From: a bacterium BMS3Abin01
GTDB lineage: Bacteria; Actinomycetota; Thermoleophilia; BMS3ABIN01
Length of the DNA stretch: 59,514 nucleotides
Assembly (NCBI GenBank): GCA_002897715.1
Contig: BDUA01000011.1
Location: 1-59,514, forward strand
Reading direction: 5' to 3'
The notes beneath the pieces were generated by a model that saw only the letters and a list, made by a program, of their open reading frames with translations, was not told where the DNA came from and did no database searches. A program made the translations under genes and the position numbers. Position 1 is the first letter of the stretch; the number at the start of each line of letters is the position of its first letter. This document shows positions 29,080-40,504 of the stretch, one piece after another.

Positions 29080-30456
29080 ATGCCAAAAGCCCATATCAAG
29101 CAGAGCCCCATGCTTACCGTCCGGCAGAGGACTGTCCTGGCGCCCCAGCTTTATCAGGGGCTCAAGGTGCTACGCATGGGCGCCGCAGAGCTGCAGCAGC
29201 TCATCCAGAGCGAGCTGAACGAGAACCCGGTACTCGAACTCCCCGAGCCCGTCGACACTGGCTTAACAGCGGAATCCCAGCCCTACCGGGAGCTTTGGAA
29301 TGAATATGCCGGGGCTAACCGCATCCATGGCTCCAACAGACAGGGTGAGACGACGCCCCACCCCAACCCGGTAGAGCTGACTGCCAGCCCCACCACCCTG
29401 GCGGAGCATCTGGGCGTTCAACTCGAGCTTCAGGATCTTGCCGAGGCTGAGAACCGCATCGGCAGAGCGATCATCGGCAGCCTCGATGACAACGGCTACC
29501 TGCGCGATTCCATAGCGTCCCTGTCGGAGACTACCAGCGAACCTCCCGGCGAGGTAGAGAAGGTGCTGGCGGTCATCCAGGGTTTCGACCCCCCGGGCAT
29601 CGCCGCCAGGAGCCTGGAGGAATGCCTGCTCAACCAGATGGACCCGGGTGATGCCCAGGGCCTGCCGGGAAGGATCGTCAGACATTGCCTGCCGCAGCTG
29701 GGACGCGGCTCCATCGGCAGTATCGTCCGCATGTTGTCCGAGAACCGTTACCGCGTTGAATACGCGATAGCGCTGATACGCCGTCTCTGCCCTTCGCCCG
29801 GATCGCAGTTCGACACCAGCCCGCCCGCCGGTGCCGCCATCCCTGATGTCTTCATCAGGAAGTCAGGCGATAGCTGGGCTATACTGACCAATCGCGAGAT
29901 CACGCCCTCGCTGAGCATAAGCCGTGATTGTGAACGGCTGGTGGAAAAGCTGGCGGACGCCGATGCCAGGGAGTACATCCAGGCCAAAAGTGAACGGGCA
30001 CGCCAGCTTATCAAGGATGTGAACCAGCGCCGTCTCACGCTCACCCGGGTAGCGCGCGCCATCGCCAACGCCCAGGAGGAATTCTTCGAGAAGGGAAGGG
30101 ACAGCCTCAAGCCGATGAACCTGGATGACATCGCCCGTGTCCTGGACGTCAACCCTTCTACCGTCAGCCGCGCCATCCAGGGTAAATACATGAGCACCCC
30201 CTTCGGCATCTTCGAGTTCAAATTCTTCTTCTCTACCGGTTACGCTGTCGCCTCCGGACCGGACCTCTCGGCCACGGCGCTGAAGGAGCGGCTGAAGAAG
30301 ATGATCGCCGCCGAGGACGGCAGGCGCCCCCTGTCCGACCAGAAGCTGGCCGACGCGTTAAAAAGGGAGAGTATCAGTATCTCGCGGCGGACAGTGACCA
30401 AGTATCGTGAGGAGCTGGGCCTGCCGGCCTCCTGGCAGAGGAAGAGTTCCGCATGA
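29080..30456 (+). CDS. rpoN: RNA polymerase sigma-54 factor
   Basis: Region I LAPQLYQGLKVL...ELNENPVLE, LDDNGYL, HTH STVSRA, RpoN box SRRTVTKYREEL. Confidence 0.96.
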   Translation: MPKAHIKQSPMLTVRQRTVLAPQLYQGLKVLRMGAAELQQLIQSELNENPVLELPEPVDTGLTAESQPYRELWNEYAGANRIHGSNRQGETTPHPNPVELTASPTTLAEHLGVQLELQDLAEAENRIGRAIIGSLDDNGYLRDSIASLSETTSEPPGEVEKVLAVIQGFDPPGIAARSLEECLLNQMDPGDAQGLPGRIVRHCLPQLGRGSIGSIVRMLSENRYRVEYAIALIRRLCPSPGSQFDTSPPAGAAIPDVFIRKSGDSWAILTNREITPSLSISRDCERLVEKLADADAREYIQAKSERARQLIKDVNQRRLTLTRVARAIANAQEEFFEKGRDSLKPMNLDDIARVLDVNPSTVSRAIQGKYMSTPFGIFEFKFFFSTGYAVASGPDLSATALKERLKKMIAAEDGRRPLSDQKLADALKRESISISRRTVTKYREELGLPASWQRKSSA

Positions 30457-31988
30457 GCGATTCCACGCGGGAGAATACTGATAACCGCTTCCGGCAACCG
30501 CTGGCGGCGGTGACCCGTGGCCAGATCCGCGACATTATACTGATAGTCACCGTCACCGCCCTGATCACCTACTTCCATAACTGGCCGCCGCATATTGGTA
30601 TCATCCCTTCGGAGTCGCTGCATATCCTGCTGCGACGCCTGTATTACATACCGATAATCTACGCCGCCTTCCGTTTCGGCATCAAGGGCGGTCTGCTGAC
30701 TTCACTCACCATCACCGCCCTGTTCGCACCGCACGCGGCCAGGTCCATGGGCGGGCTGTTCAAGGGGGCGGCCGTCGATAACTTCTTCGACCTGCTCATC
30801 TACAACGTGGTAGCCATCACCACGGGCATGGTGGTCGACGACAAGCGCCGTCAGGCGCAGCGATACCAGGAAACGCTTAAACTGAACCGGGAGATAGAGG
30901 AGCGGGAAACGGCCCTGCGGCAGATAAAGGCTTATACTGACAGCATCCTGAGCAGTATCAGCAGCGGCGTCATCTCTCTGGACCGCCGGGGTAATATCGT
31001 CACCGCCAACCCGGAGGCGATGCGGATACTGGGACGGAAGGAGAGCGAGCTGGTGGGCTTCCCGCTGGAAAAAATATTCAGAAACCAGGAACGGCTGGTA
31101 CTGGCGGCGCGGCGCATTCTCAACGGAGAACAACAGCGCGCCACCATGGAGGCCGAGCTGGCCGGTGAAGGACAGGTGCTTACGGTCGCCATCCGTATCA
31201 CGCCACATCTGAGCCGGGGTGAAACCGTAGGTATTGTGATCACCATCGAGGATCTTACCGAGGTCAAGAACCTGACGGAACAACTTATGCGGGCGGATAA
31301 ACTTTCAGGTCTGGGTGAACTGGTGGCCGGCGTCGCCCACGAGGTACGCAACCCCCTGGGCGTCATCAGGGCCAGCGTCCAGATGATGGAAAAGGAGATG
31401 GAGACCGGTTGCAAGTCCTCGGAGCTGACCCACGTCATGTTACAGGAGATCGACCGGCTGGACGCGGTAGTGAAGGCTCTGCTGGATTTCGGCCGGCCCT
31501 CGAAGTCCCAGTTCGAACGGATCGACGTGCAGCAGTCGCTGGAAGAGGTAATCCTGCTTACCCGCCAGTTCGCCCTCCAGCAGCAAGTGGGGGTGAGTCG
31601 TAATTTCGCCGAGGACCTGCCGGCACTGTGGGCTGATGACGATCAATTGAAGCAGGTCTTCGTCAATCTGATATCCAATGCCATACAGGCCATGCCCGAC
31701 GGGGGGAGACTGAGCATCTCCGTGTACACGGAAGGTGGCTTCATCAAGATCTCCTTCGCCGACAGCGGCACCGGCATTTCCACGGAAACAAGGGAACGTA
31801 TCTTCGATCCATTCTTCACCACGCGTGCCGGTGGCAGCGGTCTGGGACTTTCCATCGTCCATCGTATCGTCGATGCCCATAACGGTTATATGCAGGTCGG
31901 GAGCAGGGTCGGTACCGGTAGTACCTTTACCGTCAGCCTGCCGCTGATAAAGAGAGGAGAACGACCCGAGGTGGAGATCAATGCCTGA
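30453..31988 (+). CDS. Membrane PAS-domain sensor histidine kinase
   Basis: TM region (HILLRRLYYIPII), PAS domain, H-box AHEVRNPL, N/G1/F/G2 boxes. Confidence 0.93.
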   Translation: MSDSTRENTDNRFRQPLAAVTRGQIRDIILIVTVTALITYFHNWPPHIGIIPSESLHILLRRLYYIPIIYAAFRFGIKGGLLTSLTITALFAPHAARSMGGLFKGAAVDNFFDLLIYNVVAITTGMVVDDKRRQAQRYQETLKLNREIEERETALRQIKAYTDSILSSISSGVISLDRRGNIVTANPEAMRILGRKESELVGFPLEKIFRNQERLVLAARRILNGEQQRATMEAELAGEGQVLTVAIRITPHLSRGETVGIVITIEDLTEVKNLTEQLMRADKLSGLGELVAGVAHEVRNPLGVIRASVQMMEKEMETGCKSSELTHVMLQEIDRLDAVVKALLDFGRPSKSQFERIDVQQSLEEVILLTRQFALQQQVGVSRNFAEDLPALWADDDQLKQVFVNLISNAIQAMPDGGRLSISVYTEGGFIKISFADSGTGISTETRERIFDPFFTTRAGGSGLGLSIVHRIVDAHNGYMQVGSRVGTGSTFTVSLPLIKRGERPEVEINA

Positions 31989-33324
31989 TACTATTCTTCT
32001 GGTAGATGATGAGGAAAACATGCGTTTCGTGGTGGCGCGGGCCCTTTCAAGCGACGGGTACGGTATCCGCGAAGCATCGTCCGGAAAGGAAGCTCTCATC
32101 CAGGTTGAAGCGGAATCGCCGGACCTGGTGATCCTCGACCAGCGCATGCAGGGAATGGATGGTATCCAGACCCTGACGGAGATCAAGCAGGATAACCCGG
32201 ATCTGCCGGTGATCATGCTCACCGCCCACGGTAACGTGGAGAACGCGGTTCAGGCGATGAAGGCCGGGGCCGTTGAATACCTCACCAAGCCCTTTGATAT
32301 CGAGGAGCTCAAGCTTGTCGTACGGAAGGCACTGCGGGTCAGCCGTCTGGTACGGCAGGTGGATTACCTGCGTAGCGAGCTGGACCGCGACTACGATACC
32401 GGCGGCATCATCGGCAACAGTCCCCAGATGCACGACGTCCTGGACACCGTCTCCCGCGTCGCTCCCTCGGACGCCACAGTAATCATCTACGGCGAGAGCG
32501 GGACGGGCAAGGAACTGATCGCAAAGGCCATCCACGAGAACAGTTCACGCCGGGACCGGGCCTTCATCCAGTTGAGTTGCGCCGCCCTGCCGGAGACGCT
32601 GCTGGAGAGCGAACTGTTCGGCTACGAGAAGGGAGCGTTTACCGGAGCCACGGGAGCCAAACCGGGGCGGTTCGAGTTGGCCGACGGCGGCAGCCTGTTC
32701 CTCGATGAGATCGGTGACATCACTCTGGCGGTCCAGGTGAAACTGTTGCGTGTGCTGGAGCAAAAAACATTCGAGCGGCTGGGCGGCTCCAAGACCGTCG
32801 ATGTCGACGTGAGGCTGATCGGCGCCACCAACCGTGACCTGCCGACGATGGTACGCGATGGAGAATTCCGCGAAGACCTGTTTTACCGCCTGAATGTCAT
32901 CCCCATCAACATGCCACCGCTACGGAACCGAAAAGACGACATCCGGCTGCTGGTGAACCACTTCATGAAACGCTACGCGCCGGACAAGGAGCTTTCGGAC
33001 AAAGCGCTGCGCCTGCTGGCCGAATACTCCTGGCCGGGAAACGTACGCGAGTTGCAGAATACTATCGAACGGGCGTCGATACTCTGCCGCAACCGGGAGA
33101 TCCGGGTCGATGACCTGCCGGAAGAGATAAGCCACAGCCGTCCTCTTTCCTGTGGCTCCTTCAAGCTGCCCCCGGACGGCATCGCCCTCGAACAGGTGGA
33201 GCAGGAGCTGATATCACAGGCGCTGGAGCGTACCGGAGGGAACAAGACACGCGCAGCGGAACTACTGGGCATAAGCAGACATACGCTGCTTTACCGTCTC
33301 GACAAGTTCGGAATCGGCAATTGA
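31981..33324 (+). CDS. Sigma-54-dependent response regulator (NtrC/AtoC family bEBP)
   Basis: Receiver domain, GESGTGKE, intact GAFTGA, FLDEIG, WPGNVREL, Fis-type HTH. Confidence 0.96.
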   Translation: MPDTILLVDDEENMRFVVARALSSDGYGIREASSGKEALIQVEAESPDLVILDQRMQGMDGIQTLTEIKQDNPDLPVIMLTAHGNVENAVQAMKAGAVEYLTKPFDIEELKLVVRKALRVSRLVRQVDYLRSELDRDYDTGGIIGNSPQMHDVLDTVSRVAPSDATVIIYGESGTGKELIAKAIHENSSRRDRAFIQLSCAALPETLLESELFGYEKGAFTGATGAKPGRFELADGGSLFLDEIGDITLAVQVKLLRVLEQKTFERLGGSKTVDVDVRLIGATNRDLPTMVRDGEFREDLFYRLNVIPINMPPLRNRKDDIRLLVNHFMKRYAPDKELSDKALRLLAEYSWPGNVRELQNTIERASILCRNREIRVDDLPEEISHSRPLSCGSFKLPPDGIALEQVEQELISQALERTGGNKTRAAELLGISRHTLLYRLDKFGIGN

Positions 33325-33424: not shown

Positions 33425-34627
33425 ATGAAACGGCTCGGACTCCTTTACCTGGCAGCACAGAACCTCAGACGCAAACCCTTCAGAAGCTTTGTGACCATTG
33501 CCATCGTGGCGATCGCCGCCGGCACCCTGTTCTCGGCCACACTGCTGATCAGTAGTGTCAACCGCAGCCTCGAGGTCGGCATGGAACGGCTGGGCGCCGA
33601 TATCCTGGTGGTGCCGGAGGGTTCACAGGAATCCGGCGAGGCGGCCCTGATTACCGGAGTCCCCACCAGCTTTTACATGGAACGGTCGGTGGCCGATCAG
33701 GTTGCCGCAGTACAGGGGGTGGACCAGGTCTCTCCCCAGCTGTTCATCGAATCCCTTATCTCCTCCGCCTGTTGCACGGGCCACGTGCAACTGGTGGGTT
33801 ATGACCCGGATACGGACTTCGTTATAACGCCCTGGCTCGAGCAGAACGTCGACAAGCCTCTGGATCGTGATGATGTGGTCATCGGCTCGCTGATACTCGC
33901 CAATAAGGGTGAGACGGTGAAGTTCTACGGGCATGACTTCAATGTAGTAGGCATACTGGACGCCACCGGCATGGGCGCCGACGAGAGCGTGTTCATGACC
34001 CTGGATGCCGCCTACGCCATGGCGGACGAGTCGGCCCAAGACGCGGCCACGGCCCTTGAGCTGCAGCCCGGCCAGATCTCGTCGGTGCTGGTAAGGGTAG
34101 CGCCGGGGACCACCATCGAGCAGGTGGCGCAACGCATCAAGACCAGCGTACCGGGCACCCTGGCCATTACCGCCAACGAACTGAGCCGTTCAGTTACCGA
34201 CCGGCTCTCGGGTTTCCTCAAAGGCTTTATCGTGCTCGATATCATCGTCTGGATTATGGCCCTGCTTACCATCGCCGCCATCTTTTCCATGATCGTCAAT
34301 GAACGCCAGCGGGAGATCGGCCTGTTGAGAGCCATGGGCGGCAAACGTGGGTATATCTTCCGCCTGATGACTACCGAAGCGATACTGCTTACCGCCGCCG
34401 GCGGCCTGACAGGCGTCCTCCTCGGCGGCGCGGGAATGTTCATCTTCCGCGCAGTGATCACCGCCAGCCTGGGTATCCCCTACCTCTGGCCACCACTGTG
34501 GTTCTTCGCGTTACTGGTACTGGGCACACTGTTTCTCTCAGTGGTAAGCGGCGTGGTGGCGTCCCTTTATCCGGCGATAAGCTCCAGTCGCCTCGAACCC
34601 TATGCCGCCATACGAAAGGGAGAGTGA
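33425..34627 (+). CDS. FtsX/MacB-type ABC transporter permease
   Basis: NLRRKPFRS, large extracellular domain containing SACCTGH, ERQREIGLLRAMG. Confidence 0.9.
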   Translation: MKRLGLLYLAAQNLRRKPFRSFVTIAIVAIAAGTLFSATLLISSVNRSLEVGMERLGADILVVPEGSQESGEAALITGVPTSFYMERSVADQVAAVQGVDQVSPQLFIESLISSACCTGHVQLVGYDPDTDFVITPWLEQNVDKPLDRDDVVIGSLILANKGETVKFYGHDFNVVGILDATGMGADESVFMTLDAAYAMADESAQDAATALELQPGQISSVLVRVAPGTTIEQVAQRIKTSVPGTLAITANELSRSVTDRLSGFLKGFIVLDIIVWIMALLTIAAIFSMIVNERQREIGLLRAMGGKRGYIFRLMTTEAILLTAAGGLTGVLLGGAGMFIFRAVITASLGIPYLWPPLWFFALLVLGTLFLSVVSGVVASLYPAISSSRLEPYAAIRKGE

Positions 34628-34637
34628 CGGCAATACC

Positions 34638-35324
34638 ATGTCAGACAAAATAATTTCGCTAAAGGGTGTGAGCAAGACCTATAAGGTAGGCCCCAGCACG
34701 GTACGAGCCGTTGACAACGCCGTCCTGGAGATCGAGCGGGGGCGCATGGTGGCCATAGTCGGTCATTCCGGCAGCGGCAAAACTACGCTGCTCAGCCTGA
34801 TCGGCGGTCTTACCAAACCAACATCGGGAAACGTACTGTTGAACGGCACCGACATCTGGGCCATCTCGGATAACGAGCTGTCGGTACTGAGGAACAAGAT
34901 GATCGGCTTCTCCTTCCAGTTCGCCAGCCTCATCCCCACACTCAACGTCTACGATAACGTGAGATTGCCCTCCACCTTCGACGGAGCGCCTCCGGTCAGG
35001 GAGGACCGGGCCCAGGATCTGCTGGAAATGGTGGGGTTGGGGGATCGGGGCAATTCTTTTCCGGCCCACCTCTCAGGCGGTGAACAGCGGCGGGTGGCGC
35101 TGGCCCGTACCCTGATGAACGAGCCGCAACTCATCCTCGCCGACGAGCCCACCGGTGACCTGGACGAGGATACAGAGGGCGAGATCCTGGATATCCTCAG
35201 GAAGATCAACGCCGGAGGTGCTACTATAATACTCGTAACCCACTCGCGAGCGGTCGCTTCACAGGCGGAATATGAGCTGCGGATGGACAAGGGTCACCTC
35301 TCTGAGAAACCTGCTGAATTCTGA
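34638..35324 (+). CDS. LolD/MacB-type ABC ATP-binding protein
   Basis: GHSGSGKTT, LSGGEQRR, ADEPTGDLD. Start at ATG 34638. Confidence 0.92.
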   Translation: MSDKIISLKGVSKTYKVGPSTVRAVDNAVLEIERGRMVAIVGHSGSGKTTLLSLIGGLTKPTSGNVLLNGTDIWAISDNELSVLRNKMIGFSFQFASLIPTLNVYDNVRLPSTFDGAPPVREDRAQDLLEMVGLGDRGNSFPAHLSGGEQRRVALARTLMNEPQLILADEPTGDLDEDTEGEILDILRKINAGGATIILVTHSRAVASQAEYELRMDKGHLSEKPAEF

Positions 35325-35919: not shown

Positions 35920-35936
35920 TTGGCAAGTTCTTTGCT
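35920..35936 (+). promoter_or_regulatory. Sigma-54 (-24/-12) promoter
   Basis: TTGGCAAGTTCTTTGCT: GG at 35922-23, exactly 10 nt, GC at 35934-35. Matches YTGGCACG-N4-TTGCW at all but one position; predicted +1 near 35947. Confidence 0.85.
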
Positions 35937-36016
35937 GTATATATATATGAAAAGCCTTGATCCCATACTAAAACCCTCTTTCTAACGGTTTGGGAAAGCT
36001 GGCTTTCCACTTTTCC

Positions 36017-36046
36017 GGGGCCTGCCTGTGACGGCAGGCGGGCCCC
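36017..36046 (+). other. Strong hairpin in the 5' leader of the PqqD-like gene
   Basis: GGGGCCTGCCTG-TGACGG-CAGGCGGGCCCC: 12-bp stem with one G-U pair, no U tract. Confidence 0.6.
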
Positions 36047-36095
36047 CGAAACAACCGCGGGGGCAACGGAACAGCCGCAAAGGAGAGAGTGCGTA

Positions 36096-36359
36096 ATGGA
36101 ATTAAGCGAGGAAACTGCTACCGATTTGTCCGGCAGCGGGCAGATGACCAGTGAAGTACACGACCTCATCATGCATAGCGCCATTGCGGAAAAGGTTTGG
36201 GAGTTGCTGGACCACACGCTTACACTGCCCGATATCGCCGCTGTGATCTCGTCCGAGTTCGGGCTTCCACGTGAACGCGCCCTGTCCGACACCCGGGAAC
36301 TCGTTGATATCTTCAGCAGGGCGGACTTCGTAACCGTCTTGCGCGCACCGCAACACTAG
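36096..36359 (+). CDS. PqqD-like / RiPP recognition element (RRE) protein
   Basis: 87 aa; IAEKVWELLD...TLPDIAAVISSEFGLPRERALSDTRELVDIF three-helix pattern typical of PqqD. AAGGAG RBS. Confidence 0.75.
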   Translation: MELSEETATDLSGSGQMTSEVHDLIMHSAIAEKVWELLDHTLTLPDIAAVISSEFGLPRERALSDTRELVDIFSRADFVTVLRAPQH

Positions 36360-36391: not shown

Positions 36392-37435
36392 CTACCGCTT
36401 GCCGGCCGCGGCGCTGGCTACCCATCGCCTGACTGTTTCCATATCGGATCCCAGCCGGCCTGCTATCTCATTGCAATCCATACCCTTTTCGCTGAGCTCC
36501 CTGGCGCGTGCCTGCCGGTCTCGGTATGCCTTGCTGCGACAGGCGTTGGAACAGAAATAGCGGTTCGTGCGAGCCGTGTAATGATCGATTTCAAACCAGG
36601 TATCACACTGCCGGCAGCGGCGGTAATCCTTCTCCTGTGTTATGGACTGGGAGAGTTGAAGCCAGAGGGCACCAATCAGGTTGTTGGGTACGAAATAGAG
36701 GCTCCAGCCGTTCAGGTGCCGGTCATCCCACAGTATCCTGGGAGAGATGCGCCTCTCCAGGCACCGGTTGGCGATGGCCTGCACCGCCAGCAAGGCGGTC
36801 CCGGCCAGGTTGCCCGCCCGGTACATATTCAGGCTCTCCGGATGGCTGCGATACCATCTTAGCTCACCCGGATCCACTTTTGGCAGCAGCCGCGAGGCGA
36901 CGCCATTGGCGGAGATCTCTCCCGCAGCCATGTCTGCTTCCACCCACCGCATCAGCGGTGAAAGAAATGCGTCCAGTCCCCTGCCGTCCTCATCCTGGAC
37001 CATATCCCATATCCGTAAGGCTTTACGCATGGCGCGTATCTCATTCCGCCATGACTCCAGGGGCTCCATCCGCAGGTAAACAGGAGAACTGCCCGCGTGT
37101 GCCGTCTCACGCCCGAACCCCATCAGCCCGTACTCATCGGCAAAACCGATGATGTCTTCAGGCTCCATGCCGGTCTCAGCGAATGCCCGAAACAGACATT
37201 TTTGCTCAAGAAGCGGGTTATACTGCTTCATGTCATAGGAGCCGGGGCCCTCGGAGAGCTTGGCGGCGATCAGTCTCCCCGGCGCAGACCCCTCACCGCG
37301 GTTTCCGCTGTTCCCATTGTCGTCGATGCCCCCTGATGAATCTCCGGCCAACGCCGCATCAACCAGCGTGTAGCCGGCCTTATTCACAAACCAAATAAAG
37401 TCAAATATCTCTCCTGGCACAAAAAACCCCTCCAT
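36392..37435 (-). CDS. CGNR-type zinc-finger protein with a C-terminal HTH-like tail
   Basis: CRQCDTWF...RYFCSNACRSKAYRDR, then GMDCNEIAGRLGSDMETVRRW. Start uncertain (37435 or 37501). Confidence 0.7.
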   Translation of the reverse strand: MEGFFVPGEIFDFIWFVNKAGYTLVDAALAGDSSGGIDDNGNSGNRGEGSAPGRLIAAKLSEGPGSYDMKQYNPLLEQKCLFRAFAETGMEPEDIIGFADEYGLMGFGRETAHAGSSPVYLRMEPLESWRNEIRAMRKALRIWDMVQDEDGRGLDAFLSPLMRWVEADMAAGEISANGVASRLLPKVDPGELRWYRSHPESLNMYRAGNLAGTALLAVQAIANRCLERRISPRILWDDRHLNGWSLYFVPNNLIGALWLQLSQSITQEKDYRRCRQCDTWFEIDHYTARTNRYFCSNACRSKAYRDRQARARELSEKGMDCNEIAGRLGSDMETVRRWVASAAAGKR

Positions 37436-37794
37436 ATTCGATATCGTTACGGGAATTATATCGGAATACGTATTGAATGTCCATCGAAGTAGCGGATACA
37501 ATTATAATCGGTTAACTTGCATTTGTCTTCACAGGCAGGGGATAGGGGAATTGACAGGGGAAAGCCGGTCCTGACTTAGGAATCACCCGGTTTTTGCGAT
37601 ATAAACAGGGTGTTCTGCTTTTAATAGTCAGCTTCCTCCACCGGCAACGTAATAAGCCTCCATTTCTTCTCTCGAACCTCTCCCCCCACTCTAGCGAAGA
37701 CGCATTATCAAATTACGGGAAACGGGAGGTGGTGGCACTAACGCAGGGTGCAAGTCTAACCCTTAAGATACATTACTATTAGGAGGATGAAGGG

Positions 37795-40251
37795 ATGAAA
37801 GTTGCATTGAGCAACACTAAATGGCAACTGCTGCTACTGGCAACGCCGCTGGTACTGATCCTGGCGATAGCTATCGCCACCAGCGGCATGTCAGGCGCAG
37901 CTGATGCCGCGTACGGCGGTTACGGTTGCGGCGCCTATACGCCCTGCGACCAGGCTCCGCCCGCCTCTTACGGCCTCGGCAACGAGTTGCTGTATGTGGC
38001 CAACGGTGACGCCAGCGACGTACTGGTGATCGATGCCAATACCATGCGCAAGGTGGACACCATACCCGTGCCCGATGCCGACCCGGGCGGAGATGCCTGG
38101 GAGATCCACGGCATGATCCCGTCCCCTGACAGGAGCTCCATGTTCGCCATAGGCGCCCTGTCCGGAACGGCGGCCGACGTTACCATGTACGAGATCGATA
38201 CGGCCACCAAGAACGTAGTGCGCACTATCGGCCCCATGTACAGCTCCAACGTCGGTTATTGCGGCTTCGAGTACGACCGCAACGACGAGAACTCCAACCT
38301 GGTCTACGCCACCAACATGGGGACACCGTTACTCGGCCCCACCGGCAGCGTGGGCGGTTGGCAGGAAGTGGATATCTCCACCGGCACCGTGGGCAGGTTC
38401 ATACCTACGGACGCCAACGGCAACGGCGAGTCCAGCACCTGTGGCGTCGCCTGGGATGCCAGCGGCACTCACGGCTACGCCGGACTGATGTTCGACGCCC
38501 CGTCATCGGAGACCGAGATGGACTGGCCGGGCGCTACCACGATGAATTACAACGCCTCGTCCGGTACATCGGGCATCTCCTACCACCAGAGCACGGTGGA
38601 CAAGGAACGCGGCCTGCTGTTCCAGTCGGGCGGCAACGGTCACGTCCTTGATGTCTTCGACATCAGCGGCGGCAATCCGGTGCTGATCGGCACCATCGAC
38701 CTGGCGGCGCTTACCGGCGTCCCCTCGGCCGAACCTCATGGCCCGGAGATCTCCGCGGCCAACAGCAACGTCCTGTACGTCAATACGCGCCAGGTACCCG
38801 ATCCCAACCCATCGGGCGGTACAGTGCTGGCTATTGACGTCAGCGATATCAACGCTCCTGTACTGATCGGCGGCTACAGCGGCACCAATAAATCATCTTG
38901 CGGTGTCTTCGCCGACGCGGACAAGAGCCTGTACTACAGTCACGCAGATCCCAGCGGTACCGGTAGCGAGACCCTGCTGGTAGCTAACGGCAGCGACAGC
39001 GATGTGCTGGTAGCTGACGTCGCTTCCATGTCCTGGGTGGACAGCATCAATATCCCGGACGCCGACCCGGCCGGAAACGCCTGGGAGATACACGGCATGA
39101 TCCCGTCTCCGGACAGGACATCCGTCTACGCCGTAGGCGCCCTGTCCGGCACCTCGGCTGACGTGACCATGTATCAGGTCAACTCGGCCAACGACTCTGT
39201 CGTCGGCACTATCGGACCCATGTACGGCTCCAACGTCGGTTACTGCGGCATCGAGTACGACCGCAACGACGAGAGCTCCAACCTGGTCTACGCCACCAAC
39301 ATGGGGACGCCGTTACTCGGCCCCACCGACAGCGTGGGCGGTTGGCAGGAAGTGGATATCTCCTCCGGCACCGTGGGCAGGTTCATCAACACCGATGCCA
39401 ACGGCAACGGCGAATCCAGCACCTGTGGTGTCGCCTGGGATGCCAGCGGCACTCACGGCTACGCCGGACTGATGTTCGACGCCCCATCATCGGAGACCGA
39501 GATGGACTGGCCGGGCGCTACCACGATGAACTACAACGCCTCGTCCGGCACTCCGGGCATCTCCTACCACCAGAACACGGTGGCCAAGGAACGCGGCCTG
39601 CTGTTCCAGTCCGGTGGTACCGGTGGAGTCCTTGATGTCTTCGACATCAGCGGCGGCAACCCGGTGCTGATCGGCACCATCGACCTCGTCGCTCTCACCG
39701 GTGCGCCTTCTACCGAGCCTCATGGTCCGGAGATCTCGTCCATCGACGAGAACATCCTGTACGTCAATGTTCGCCAGGTACCCAGCCCCAACCCCTCCGG
39801 GGGATCACTGCTGGTTATCGACGTCAGCGACGTTACAGCTCCGGTGCTGCTTGGGACGATACAGGGCACCAACGAATCGTCCTGCGGCGTCTTCGCCATG
39901 AGCACAGCTTCATGGAACCCCGGCCAGCCCGCCCTGAGTCTCACCAGGGGCACGGTCTACTGGGCCTCCGTGGCTGACTACAACAACCGCATCCTGTCCG
40001 TCGACTACAGCATCGGCAACGCCGGACCGGACGCCAAGGACGTCACCATCGCCGGCACGGTCAACACCGGCGGCGTGACCTCGGTGAACACGCCCAGCCT
40101 GGCCGGCGACATCGCCGGCGGCGGCAGCGGCGCCTACATCGTCGAGTACTATGTGCCCGTCGGCGTAGTGGCGTTCAGCACCACCGTATACGCAACCGCT
40201 CAGAGCGGCGCCACCATCTACGACTACCCCGGTCCGTACCCCGGACCTTAA
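37795..40251 (+). CDS. Secreted protein with two tandem beta-propeller-like domains and a C-terminal beta-sandwich-like domain
   Basis: AGGAGG upstream, signal peptide, YVAN...VLVID and LYVN blade motifs, internal 328-aa duplication. Confidence 0.85.
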   Translation: MKVALSNTKWQLLLLATPLVLILAIAIATSGMSGAADAAYGGYGCGAYTPCDQAPPASYGLGNELLYVANGDASDVLVIDANTMRKVDTIPVPDADPGGDAWEIHGMIPSPDRSSMFAIGALSGTAADVTMYEIDTATKNVVRTIGPMYSSNVGYCGFEYDRNDENSNLVYATNMGTPLLGPTGSVGGWQEVDISTGTVGRFIPTDANGNGESSTCGVAWDASGTHGYAGLMFDAPSSETEMDWPGATTMNYNASSGTSGISYHQSTVDKERGLLFQSGGNGHVLDVFDISGGNPVLIGTIDLAALTGVPSAEPHGPEISAANSNVLYVNTRQVPDPNPSGGTVLAIDVSDINAPVLIGGYSGTNKSSCGVFADADKSLYYSHADPSGTGSETLLVANGSDSDVLVADVASMSWVDSINIPDADPAGNAWEIHGMIPSPDRTSVYAVGALSGTSADVTMYQVNSANDSVVGTIGPMYGSNVGYCGIEYDRNDESSNLVYATNMGTPLLGPTDSVGGWQEVDISSGTVGRFINTDANGNGESSTCGVAWDASGTHGYAGLMFDAPSSETEMDWPGATTMNYNASSGTPGISYHQNTVAKERGLLFQSGGTGGVLDVFDISGGNPVLIGTIDLVALTGAPSTEPHGPEISSIDENILYVNVRQVPSPNPSGGSLLVIDVSDVTAPVLLGTIQGTNESSCGVFAMSTASWNPGQPALSLTRGTVYWASVADYNNRILSVDYSIGNAGPDAKDVTIAGTVNTGGVTSVNTPSLAGDIAGGGSGAYIVEYYVPVGVVAFSTTVYATAQSGATIYDYPGPYPGP
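37980..39900 (+). repeat. Intragenic direct duplication, 984 bp period
   Basis: aacgacgag at 38281 and 39265; cores near-identical in DNA. Boundaries approximate. Confidence 0.92.
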
Positions 40252-40298
40252 GGGCGAGTCGGAGATAACGCGGCGAACTGACGTGAAAGGAGAACCAG

Positions 40299-40433
40299 AT
40301 GGCCTCTAAACAGAGTGACCACCGGGAGCCTTACGCCAAGCCTGAGCTGGTGAAGCACGATAACTTGAAGGATGTAACCTTCGAGTGCCCCAACTGGCAG
40401 TGCAGCGTAACGGTTCCAGCGCCGCCGGCCTAG
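40299..40433 (+). CDS. 44-aa RiPP precursor-like peptide MASKQSDHREPYAKPELVKHDNLKDVTFECPNWQCSVTVPAPPA
   Basis: Not in the ORF track. AAAGGAGA RBS just upstream of ATG; YxxPxL...T leader pattern; followed by a terminator hairpin. Confidence 0.82.
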   Translation: MASKQSDHREPYAKPELVKHDNLKDVTFECPNWQCSVTVPAPPA

Positions 40434-40466: not shown

Positions 40467-40504
40467 CGGAGGGCGGCCCCCACGGGGGCCGCCCTCCGTC
40501 ATTT
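40467..40504 (+). terminator. Intrinsic terminator-like hairpin
   Basis: CGGAGGGCGGCCCC-CACG-GGGGCCGCCCTCCG: perfect 14-bp stem followed by TCATTT. Confidence 0.8.

What the first reader, a model, noticed from the sequence alone, without database searches (positions are those of the whole stretch)
40299..40433. Unannotated 44-aa RiPP-precursor-like peptide: lasso-type leader, non-lasso Cys/Trp core
Seen: strong RBS, ORF MASKQSDHREP-YAKPEL-VKHDNLKDV-T-F-ECPNWQCSVTVPAPPA, then a 14-bp terminator hairpin. Known: YxxPxL followed ten residues later by Thr(-2) is the RRE-binding leader signature of lasso peptides and some other RRE-dependent RiPPs. The implied core ECPNWQCSVTVPAPPA has no Asp/Glu at positions 7-9, so it cannot form a standard lasso macrolactam. 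Inference: precursor of another class, with C-P-N-W-Q-C as the modified motif (thioether, Trp crosslink or quinone). A PqqD/RRE-like gene lies 4 kb upstream, but no maturase is in the window.
Basis: partly seen in the sequence, partly recalled or inferred. Interest (0 to 1): 0.88.

Follow-up and report, generated by a model that had tools for sequence, protein, structure and literature searches.

The report
Lasso-leader peptide docking onto surface proteins
A real, many-copy 44-residue peptide gene of uncultured subsurface actinobacteria carries the leader of a lasso peptide but a core that cannot form a lasso, and that core is predicted to plug into a domain shared by many of the cell's secreted proteins.

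Summary
The ORF, its ribosome-binding site and the 14-bp hairpin are all present as described. It is a real gene: relatives show pooled pS 0.56 against pN 0.13. It belongs to a family of 4-12 copies per genome, found in 23 of 23 genomes of one Thermoleophilia family and 0 of 37 other genomes of the class.

The leader matches lasso peptides exactly (Tyr-17, Pro-14, Leu-12, Thr-2). The core has Cys-Ser-Val/Ile/Leu at positions 7-9, so no lasso ring is possible, and no lasso cyclase was found.

The PqqD gene 4 kb upstream is not linked to the family. The linked genes are:
- a secreted protein ending in a CARDB-like domain, directly upstream of 55 of 72 copies;
- an HPr-kinase-like gene beside one copy per genome;
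- an unlinked kinase-B1-B2-DUF2079 operon confined to the same lineage.

Co-folding docks peptide residues 26-43 onto the CARDB-like domain (ipSAE 0.87, best control 0.03).

Best reading (confidence 0.45): a RiPP-like precursor processed by lasso-type B1/B2/kinase enzymes. Its exported 16-residue core acts as a ligand or small subunit for that domain. Processing, export and binding are all inferred, not shown.

The parts
40285..40293 (+). Ribosome-binding site GAAAGGAGA, 5 nt before the ATG
   Evidence: The same motif precedes most of the copies listed with their upstream bases.
40299..40433 (+). 44-codon peptide gene including the stop codon; one of 8 copies in this genome
   Evidence: Purifying selection in this frame only.
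40299..40382 (+). Leader, residues 1-28, with Tyr12, Pro15, Leu17 and Thr27 at -17, -14, -12 and -2 relative to a cut after Phe28
   Evidence: These four residues plus Asn22 are invariant in alignment A3. Passages of PMC10368454 place these positions in lasso leaders. The cut site itself is inferred.
40383..40430 (+). Predicted core, residues 29-44: Cys30...Cys35 loop, invariant Cys35-Ser36, a short beta-strand (Ser-Val-Thr-Val) and a proline-rich tail
   Evidence: Residues 26-43 form the predicted interface with the partner domain.
40467..40498 (+). 14-bp G+C-rich hairpin with a 4-nt loop and no U-tract; likely end of the two-gene transcript
   Evidence: z -4.1. Termination itself is inferred.
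37795..40251 (+). Partner gene, 818 aa: signal peptide, two about 80%-identical beta-propeller-like repeats (residues about 60-373 and 392-700), then a C-terminal domain. It ends 47 nt before the peptide gene.
   Evidence: A protein of this cluster lies directly upstream of 55 of 72 peptide copies.
39907..40248 (+). C-terminal CARDB-like beta-sandwich domain of the partner (residues about 705-818); the predicted docking site of the peptide core
   Evidence: AlphaFold2 mean pLDDT 90.1. Weak CARDB/DUF11 matches in 12 and 8 of 48 members. Atlas structure matches at TM 0.67-0.76. Co-fold ipSAE 0.87 against best control 0.03.

Best explanation
The ORF is one copy of a lineage-specific, multi-copy precursor peptide built from two parts.

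1. Residues 1-28 are a lasso-type leader. It is recognised in the cytoplasm by the genome's single lasso-type B1 (PqqD/RRE) protein. That recruits an HPr-kinase-like enzyme, with invariant Ser36 the likeliest target, and the B2 cysteine protease, which cuts after Phe28.

2. There is no cyclase and no acceptor residue, so the product is not a lasso. It is a linear or disulfide-looped 16-residue peptide.

3. After export, this core binds by beta-strand addition to the CARDB-like C-terminal domain carried by the protein encoded just upstream and by about 17 secreted proteins of the genome (beta-propeller, multihaem and other types). It acts as a shared small subunit, cap or tether for them. A lipoprotein encoded beside the kinase ends in the same strand-plus-proline tail and would bind the same site.

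Shown here: the gene is real and conserved; the leader motif; the gene linkages; the lineage co-occurrence.
Inferred: recognition by B1, cleavage, phosphorylation, export, and the binding itself, which is a model's prediction only.
For: Gene reality:
- pS 0.56 against pN 0.13 in this frame only.
- Strong ribosome-binding sites before most of the copies listed.

Family:
- 8 copies in the own genome.
- 4-12 copies in 23 of 23 genomes of family f1, and 0 of 37 other genomes of the class at E below 0.1.
- 89 confirmed stretches. The listed record titles (76 loci) are mostly Thermoleophilia, Gaiellales, Actinomycetes or Actinomycetota MAGs, with one record labelled Dehalococcoidia and one uncultured-bacterium MAG.

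Leader:
- Tyr12, Pro15, Leu17, Asn22 and Thr27 are invariant in 27 of 27 sequences.
- Passages of PMC10368454 state that YxxPxL spans -17 to -12 and Thr sits at -2 in lasso leaders. They also state that the kinase BsfK needs B1 and the leader.
- The leader profile also matches small peptides with canonical-looking Gly1...Asp9 cores in 2 other actinobacterial genomes.

Enzymes:
- A kinase-B1-B2 trio lies on own contig C14. B2 scores 44.4 bits against a cut-off of 33.
- B1's best solved relatives are the lasso chaperones TbiB1 (E 4.8e-9) and TfuB1.
- B2 was found in 20 of 23 f1 genomes plus G000, and in 3 of 37 others.
- The kinase-B1-B2-DUF2079 order is kept in the f1 loci checked: all four genes in 6, and the three that fit the fetched piece in 2 more.
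- A second kinase paralogue (63-96% identical among f1 genomes) lies about 0.9 kb downstream of one peptide copy per genome.

Partner:
- A cluster-0 protein ends 34-114 nt upstream on the same strand in 55 of 72 copies that have at least 600 nt of upstream sequence.
- Co-fold ipSAE was 0.87, 0.87 and 0.84 against a best control of 0.03. The runs agree in at least 95% of their contacts and the partner's pLDDT is at least 61. The tool's calibration: the mark was reached by 58 of 80 solved complexes and 2 of 110 mismatched pairs, and the counts hold only roughly because my own alignments were used.
- The lipoprotein tail W-x(1-5)-[I/V/M]-x-[I/V]-x-V-P is present in 11 of 13 members.

Precedent: passages of PMC7876137 describe QhpC. 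It has a 28-residue leader, is modified and trimmed in the cytoplasm, is exported by an ABC transporter, and assembles with secreted subunits.
Against: - No experiment or expression data were available. No processing, export or binding was measured.
- B1 and B2 are never within 6 kb of a peptide copy (0 of 70 loci). The link rests on the motif, kinase paralogy and co-occurrence among related genomes, which are not independent.
- B2 was not found in 3 f1 genomes that do have peptides (69, 92 and 78% complete).
- No dedicated exporter was identified, and the peptide has no signal peptide.
- The first core residue is Glu, which is unusual for a B2 product.
- Only 3 of the 17 proteins with this domain in the own genome are followed by a peptide gene. 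17 of 72 copies lack the partner upstream. Adjacency is therefore frequent, not obligate.
- The peptide's pLDDT in the co-fold is only 62-63. Beta-strand additions are a pose that models favour.
- The kinase-B1-B2 operon sits among glycosyltransferase genes and could serve another substrate.
Confidence: 0.45

Rival explanations
1. An unprocessed small protein. The 44-mer is not cut or modified. It binds the C-terminal domain of the upstream protein as it is, for instance as a cytoplasmic escort before secretion. On this reading the lasso-like N-terminus is a relic or binds something else.
For: The predicted interface (residues 26-43) does not need cleavage. The whole length is conserved, not only the leader. 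No maturase lies beside most copies. No exporter was identified.
Against: - The four lasso-leader positions are invariant in 27 of 27 sequences, including a sister subfamily with a different tail. That argues the leader is used as a leader.
- A kinase of the type that acts on lasso precursors lies beside one copy per genome.
- The partners carry Sec-type signal peptides and some carry CxxCH haem motifs, so they fold outside the cell.
- The lipoprotein with the same tail is extracytoplasmic.
Confidence: 0.2
2. A radical SAM-modified RiPP, with a thioether on Cys35 or a Trp crosslink. One of the genome's SPASM enzymes acts in trans, possibly together with B1/B2.
For: Cys35-Ser36 are invariant and Trp33 is nearly so. 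The genome has 11 SPASM-domain matches. One is in a PqqD / kinase-like / PqqD / radical SAM cluster on C18, which lies beside a 1079-aa protein carrying the partner domain. Another lies about 5 kb from the B1/B2 operon.
Against: - tblastn found no hit to the C18 radical SAM protein or its two PqqD proteins in any of the 70 peptide loci.
- Full-length orthologues of the C18 cluster's kinase-like gene occur in only 7 of 24 f1 genomes, whereas peptides occur in all 24.
- None of the SPASM matches lies on the window's contig.
Confidence: 0.12
3. One reading: the window's own PqqD-like protein (36096-36359) is the recognition partner of this peptide.
For: A Pfam PqqD match over the cut-off. It lies 4 kb upstream on the same strand, next to a MacB-type ABC transporter that could export a peptide.
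Against: It is present at only 2 of 70 peptide loci (this one and its near twin) and has no other copy in the genome. It has no NCBIfam match at E up to 1. A 369-aa gene on the opposite strand separates it from the peptide.
Confidence: 0.05
4. A genuine lasso peptide made by an unrecognised cyclase.
For: Lasso-type leader, B1 and B2. Asparagine-synthase-like genes exist in the genome.
Against: - Core positions 7-9 are Cys-Ser-[Val/Ile/Leu] in 72 of 72 copies, so no Asp/Glu acceptor exists.
- The two asparagine-synthase homologues pass the true AsnB model (399 and 535 bits, cut-off 267) and fail the lasso cyclase model (271 and 225 bits, cut-off 525).
- 0 of 5 near-complete f1 genomes have a match over the cyclase cut-off, and none lies on the contig that holds B2.
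Confidence: 0.03

Closest known systems
Phosphorylated lasso peptide systems with split B1/B2 and an HPr-kinase-like enzyme (paeninodin and BsfA type)
   Same: Leader with YxxPxL at -17 to -12 and Thr at -2. A separate PqqD-like B1 and a transglutaminase-like B2. An HPr-kinase-like gene beside a precursor and beside B1/B2.
   Different: No cyclase was found and there is no Asp/Glu acceptor, so there is no lasso. Precursors are scattered at 4-12 copies per genome, away from B1/B2. The core is nearly identical in all copies. The core is predicted to bind a protein domain rather than act as a free antibiotic.
QhpC, the gamma subunit of quinohaemoprotein amine dehydrogenase
   Same: A small leader-bearing peptide without a signal peptide. 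Per passages of PMC7876137, it is trimmed in the cytoplasm, exported separately, and then assembles with Sec-exported subunits that include a beta-propeller and a haem protein.
   Different: There is no sequence likeness. QhpC needs an adjacent radical SAM enzyme, a subtilisin-like protease and a flavoprotein, none of which lies beside these peptides. QhpC is single-copy and serves one enzyme. Here one peptide would serve many different proteins through a shared domain.
CARDB-type beta-sandwich domains of secreted and surface proteins
   Same: The partner's C-terminal domain has this fold: weak Pfam matches in 12 of 48 members and Atlas structure matches at TM 0.67-0.76.
   Different: No member reaches a curated cut-off. 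From memory, not from any call, no CARDB domain is known to take a separately encoded peptide as a ligand.
Donor-strand complementation in chaperone-usher pili
   Same: A beta-sandwich completed or capped by a strand supplied in trans. This resemblance is recalled, not tested.
   Different: No homology, no usher or chaperone, and the donor here is a free 16-44-residue peptide. The AlphaFold2 model of the domain alone is already confident (pLDDT 90), so the fold may not be incomplete.

Membership tests
Lasso peptide precursor | Leader with Tyr-17, Pro-14, Leu-12 (YxxPxL) and Thr-2 | tested here: met
   Tyr12, Pro15, Leu17 and Thr27 are invariant in 27 of 27 sequences. The positions are as given in passages of PMC10368454.
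Lasso peptide precursor | Asp or Glu at core position 7, 8 or 9 to close the macrolactam | tested here: not met
   Core positions 7-9 are Cys-Ser-[Val/Ile/Leu] in 72 of 72 copies.
Lasso peptide precursor | Small first core residue (Gly, Ala, Ser or Cys; recalled from memory) | tested here: not met
   It is Glu in 21 of 23 sequences of A1, with Ala and Gly once each.
Lasso peptide biosynthetic system | Asparagine-synthase-like cyclase (C protein) | tested here: not met
   The own genome's two homologues score 271 and 225 bits against a cut-off of 525 and pass the AsnB model instead. 0 of 5 near-complete relatives are over the cut-off. The own genome is only 86% complete.
Lasso peptide biosynthetic system | B1 (PqqD-like RRE) and B2 (transglutaminase-like protease) | tested here: met
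   B2 matches NF033537 at 44.4 bits (cut-off 33). B1 matches Pfam PqqD at 64.6 bits, and its best NCBIfam matches are lasso PqqD models, below their cut-offs. Its best solved relatives are TbiB1 and TfuB1. These genes are not adjacent to any peptide copy.
Kinase-modified lasso-type RiPPs | HPr-kinase-like gene linked to the precursor and to B1/B2 | tested here: met
   The kinase lies within 1.5 kb downstream of 9 of 65 copies that have enough downstream sequence, and in 13 loci by tblastn. A paralogue heads the B1-B2 operon. Kinase activity was not tested.
Sactipeptide / ranthipeptide or other radical SAM RiPP | Radical SAM/SPASM maturase linked to the precursor | tested here: not met
   No hit to the C18 radical SAM or PqqD proteins in 70 loci. 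The C18 cluster is full-length in 7 of 24 f1 genomes.
QhpC-like enzyme subunit | Adjacent radical SAM (QhpD), protease (QhpE) and exporter (QhpF), with Cys-Trp quinone chemistry | tested here: not met
   No such neighbours appear among the 30 commonest gene clusters around 79 copies. The chemistry is not testable here.
CARDB domain (partner protein) | Match to Pfam PF07705 over its cut-off | tested here: inconclusive
   12 of 48 members match weakly (best E 0.0029) and none reaches the cut-off. The fold is consistent.

The most novel reading that the evidence does not exclude
A new use of RiPP machinery. A lasso-type leader with B1/B2 and kinase enzymes, having lost the cyclase, makes an abundant structural peptide encoded by 4-12 genes. 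This peptide is the common trans-acting strand or ligand of a CARDB-like C-terminal domain on about 17 secreted redox and beta-propeller proteins. A lipoprotein bears the same tail. Together these would form a peptide-based docking or anchoring system for the cell surface of an uncultured subsurface actinobacterial lineage.
Probability: 0.3. Interest if true: 0.85.

Novelty: new variant of a known kind. Interest (0 to 1): 0.74.

Why it matters
RiPP precursors are normally read as sources of antibiotics or cofactors. This case would show lasso-type leader-recognition enzymes kept after loss of the ring-forming step. Their product would be a peptide whose role is to bind the cell's own secreted proteins.

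It also gives a testable handle on a previously unannotated protein domain. That domain is present on about 17 secreted proteins per genome, including multihaem cytochromes, in small-genome subsurface Thermoleophilia that have no cultured member.

The profile of the leader plus the W-x-C-S core also finds 94 representative peptides at E up to 0.001 in public data. That hints at a wider class nobody has described. Two literature searches found nothing on it: Thermoleophilia with 'lasso peptide' and 'YxxPxL'. All 39 database relatives are unnamed or labelled hypothetical.

Tried and rejected
**Leads that went nowhere**

- Sigma-54 promoter upstream of the partner gene: the pattern scan gave 30 matches against 58 expected. 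The TGGCAC upstream of 37795 has the wrong spacing.
- Consensus terminator scan: 0 sites, because the hairpin has no U-tract.
- NCBIfam and Pfam on the peptide: no family.
- Foldseek of the partner domain against the PDB: only generic beta-sandwiches, best E 4.3e-3.
- Solved relatives of B2: none at E up to 1.
- Sister-subfamily neighbours: only a Na+/H+ exchanger, what looks like a tRNA-like conserved stretch and a methyltransferase, none consistent between genomes.
- Expression: no RNA holder listed among the public runs.
- Genomic context of distant profile hits: one 1079-base contig, uninformative.
- I did not co-fold the peptide with B1, B2 or the window's PqqD protein. The single complex job went to the partner domain.
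- Supplementary files of the two papers were not opened. The leader alignments in the supplements of PMC10368454 might show precursors closer to this family.

Full report
**1. Observation**

The ORF at 40299-40433 (+) reads exactly as reported. GAAAGGAGA lies 5 nt before the ATG. A perfect 14-bp G+C-rich hairpin lies at 40467-40498 (z -4.1, 0 of 200 shuffles as stable). The hairpin has no U-tract, so the consensus terminator scan missed it.

**2. It is a gene, and a family**

A tblastn-type search found 8 copies in the window's own 1.5-Mb, 86%-complete genome. In 60 related genomes, 23 of 23 of the same family (f1) have 4-12 copies each. None of 37 genomes from eight other families of the class has a match below E 0.2.

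A scan of one genome per prokaryote species confirmed 89 stretches. The listed record titles (76 loci) name MAGs, mostly of Thermoleophilia, Gaiellales, Actinomycetes or Actinomycetota. One record is labelled Dehalococcoidia and one MAG is titled only as an uncultured bacterium. In the 5.8-billion-protein collection, 39 clusters match. All are unnamed or 'hypothetical' and none has a Pfam domain.

Across 72 copies, substitutions are synonymous in this frame only. Pooled pS is 0.56 and pN 0.13, with a median dN/dS of 0.15. The shifted frames give pS 0.15 and pN 0.23. Most of the copies listed with their upstream bases carry a close variant of the same ribosome-binding site. Many copies sit at contig ends, as expected of a repeated sequence.

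**3. Anatomy of the peptide**

In 23 aligned members the invariant residues are Tyr12, Pro15, Leu17, Asn22, Thr27, Phe28, Cys30, Cys35, Ser36, Val39 and Pro40.

A sister subfamily has one copy in this genome, on contig C55, with relatives in other f1 genomes. It keeps the leader but carries a different core tail that is rich in acidic residues, His and Gly. Over both subfamilies the invariant residues are Tyr12, Pro15, Leu17, Asn22, Thr27, Cys35 and Ser36.

With a cut after Phe28, the first four fall at -17, -14, -12 and -2. Passages of PMC10368454 give these as the recognition positions of lasso leaders. The leader profile also hits small peptides with Gly1...Asp9-type cores in two other actinobacterial genomes.

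The core cannot close a lasso ring. Positions 7-9 are Cys-Ser-[Val/Ile/Leu] in 72 of 72 copies.

A profile of both subfamilies finds 94 representatives at E up to 0.001, and 24 at E up to 1e-10, among 1.84 billion proteins. Many have the same leader, a W-x-C-S core and varied tails. Their origin could not be traced. A sample of 401 Actinomycetota genomes held matches only in f1 (4 of 4, including the own genome) and two leader-only matches in another family.

**4. What is not linked**

The window's PqqD-like ORF (36096-36359) is found only beside this copy and its near twin, and has no paralogue in the genome. No lasso B1, B2, radical SAM or PqqD gene lies within 6 kb of any of the 70 peptide loci.

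The genome's PqqD-linked radical SAM/SPASM cluster is on contig C18. It has full-length orthologues in only 7 of 24 f1 genomes.

The two asparagine-synthase homologues are true AsnB-type enzymes, not lasso cyclases. Five near-complete relatives have no match over the cyclase cut-off.

**5. What is linked**

(a) A secreted partner protein.
- Clustering all ORFs around 79 copies showed one dominant neighbour. It is a protein of 153-1064 aa that ends 34-114 nt upstream on the same strand. It is present at 55 of 72 copies with enough upstream sequence.
- These proteins have Sec-type signal peptides and varied N-terminal parts. Here that part is two beta-propeller-like repeats; elsewhere it is CxxCH multihaem or FN3-like.
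- They share a C-terminal domain of about 110 residues. The minimal form is a signal peptide plus this domain.
- The domain models confidently as a beta-sandwich (pLDDT 90.1) and is distantly CARDB-like.
- The own genome has 17 proteins ending in this domain. Only 3 of them are followed by a peptide gene.

(b) A kinase and a lipoprotein.
- In 13 loci, roughly one per genome, a peptide copy is followed by a lipoprotein-like gene and an HPr-kinase-like gene.
- The lipoprotein ends in W-x(1-5)-[I/V/M]-x-[I/V]-x-V-P in 11 of 13 cases, the same pattern as the peptide's C-terminus.

(c) A lasso-type B1/B2 operon elsewhere in the genome.
- A paralogous kinase (35-41% identical) heads an operon with a lasso-type B1, a B2 and a DUF2079 membrane protein. 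The order is kept in the f1 loci checked: all four genes in 6, and the three that fit the fetched piece in 2 more.
- B2 was found in 20 of 23 f1 genomes plus the own genome, and in 3 of 37 others.
- B1's best solved relatives are TbiB1 and TfuB1.
- These genomes are related to one another, so the co-occurrence is suggestive, not statistical proof.

**6. Co-fold**

I folded the partner domain (alignment of 48 sequences) with the peptide (alignment of 23). The result was ipSAE 0.87, 0.87 and 0.84 against a best control of 0.03. The runs agree in at least 95% of their contacts, and the partner's pLDDT is at least 61.

By the tool's calibration the mark was reached by 58 of 80 solved complexes and 2 of 110 mismatched pairs. 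These counts hold only roughly here, because my own alignments were used.

The interface is peptide residues 26-43 against domain residues 19-30, 38-43, 89-104 and 115-116. The closest contacts come from Trp33 and Ser36-Val39. The leader takes no part. This supports binding but does not show it.

**7. Reading**

The peptide is best read as a precursor handled by lasso-type leader machinery that no longer makes a lasso. Its conserved core would be the ligand of a domain shared by many secreted proteins.

The near-identical cores of the many copies fit a need for abundance rather than diversity. The two Cys of the main subfamily and the lipoprotein with the same tail fit an extracytoplasmic site of action.

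A precedent for a leader-bearing peptide that is trimmed inside, exported separately and assembled with secreted subunits is QhpC (passages of PMC7876137). It is an analogy only.

Open points:
- the exporter;
- the chemistry at Cys35-Ser36 (phosphorylation by the kinase is my guess);
- the role of DUF2079;
- why only some proteins with the domain have a peptide gene next to them.

**8. Limits**

- There are no expression or proteomic data.
- Only one complex job was allowed.
- The own genome is incomplete.
- Paper supplements were not seen.

Noticed in passing
window 37795-40251: The 818-aa partner protein contains an internal duplication. Residues about 60-373 and 392-700 are about 80% identical beta-propeller-like units, which suggests a recent tandem duplication.
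   Followed up: partly
window 35921-36359: A near-consensus sigma-54 -24/-12 motif (TGGCAAGTTCTTTGC, 1 mismatch) lies about 160 nt before the orphan PqqD-like ORF. That ORF sits downstream of a sigma-54 activator and its kinase (30453-33324) and a MacB-type ABC transporter (33425-35324). This may be a separate small system. From memory, sigma-54 regulation is unusual in Actinomycetota.
   Followed up: no
own genome C55:15109-15255 (L121:6110-6256): A sister peptide with the same lasso-type leader. Its core keeps only P-x-[W/L]-x-C-S and then runs into a Gly/His/acidic tail. Relatives occur in other genomes of the family. It has no partner-domain gene beside it.
   Followed up: partly
own genome C18:15000-21528 (L029): A cluster resembling the SynChlorMet cassette: a PqqD-fusion protein, an HPr-kinase/ScmC-like protein, a PqqD protein and a radical SAM/SPASM enzyme. 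It lies next to a 1079-aa NosD-like parallel beta-helix protein that also ends in the partner domain. It is present in only some genomes of the family, and its own substrate was not identified.
   Followed up: partly
own genome C47:1958-2509 (L120), and 12 homologues: A lipoprotein-like protein lies between a peptide copy and the kinase. It has a two-Cys domain, a Gly/Pro/Thr-rich linker and a C-terminal tail that mimics the peptide's tail.
   Followed up: partly
own genome, 17 places listed: 17 secreted proteins end in the same CARDB-like domain, including multihaem (CxxCH) proteins. On C9, one sits just upstream of a peptide copy and a Tat-signal molybdopterin oxidoreductase. This could be a lineage-specific C-terminal sorting or docking domain.
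   Followed up: partly
own genome C14:9469-13172 (L028:6470-10173): The operon of HPr-kinase-like, B1, B2 and DUF2079 genes is embedded among glycosyltransferase and methyltransferase genes. A radical SAM/SPASM gene lies about 5 kb away. DUF2079 may be a GT-C-type membrane enzyme (recalled from memory, not tested).
   Followed up: partly
L145 (G393:C217) and L146 (G290:C39): Two genomes of another actinobacterial family encode small peptides with a homologous leader and short Gly-first cores. One has Asp at position 9. They look like ordinary lasso precursors.
   Followed up: no
window 36392-37501 (-): A 369-aa ORF with no family match and a Cys-rich, zinc-ribbon-like C-terminal part. It is conserved only in the near twin of this locus.
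   Followed up: no
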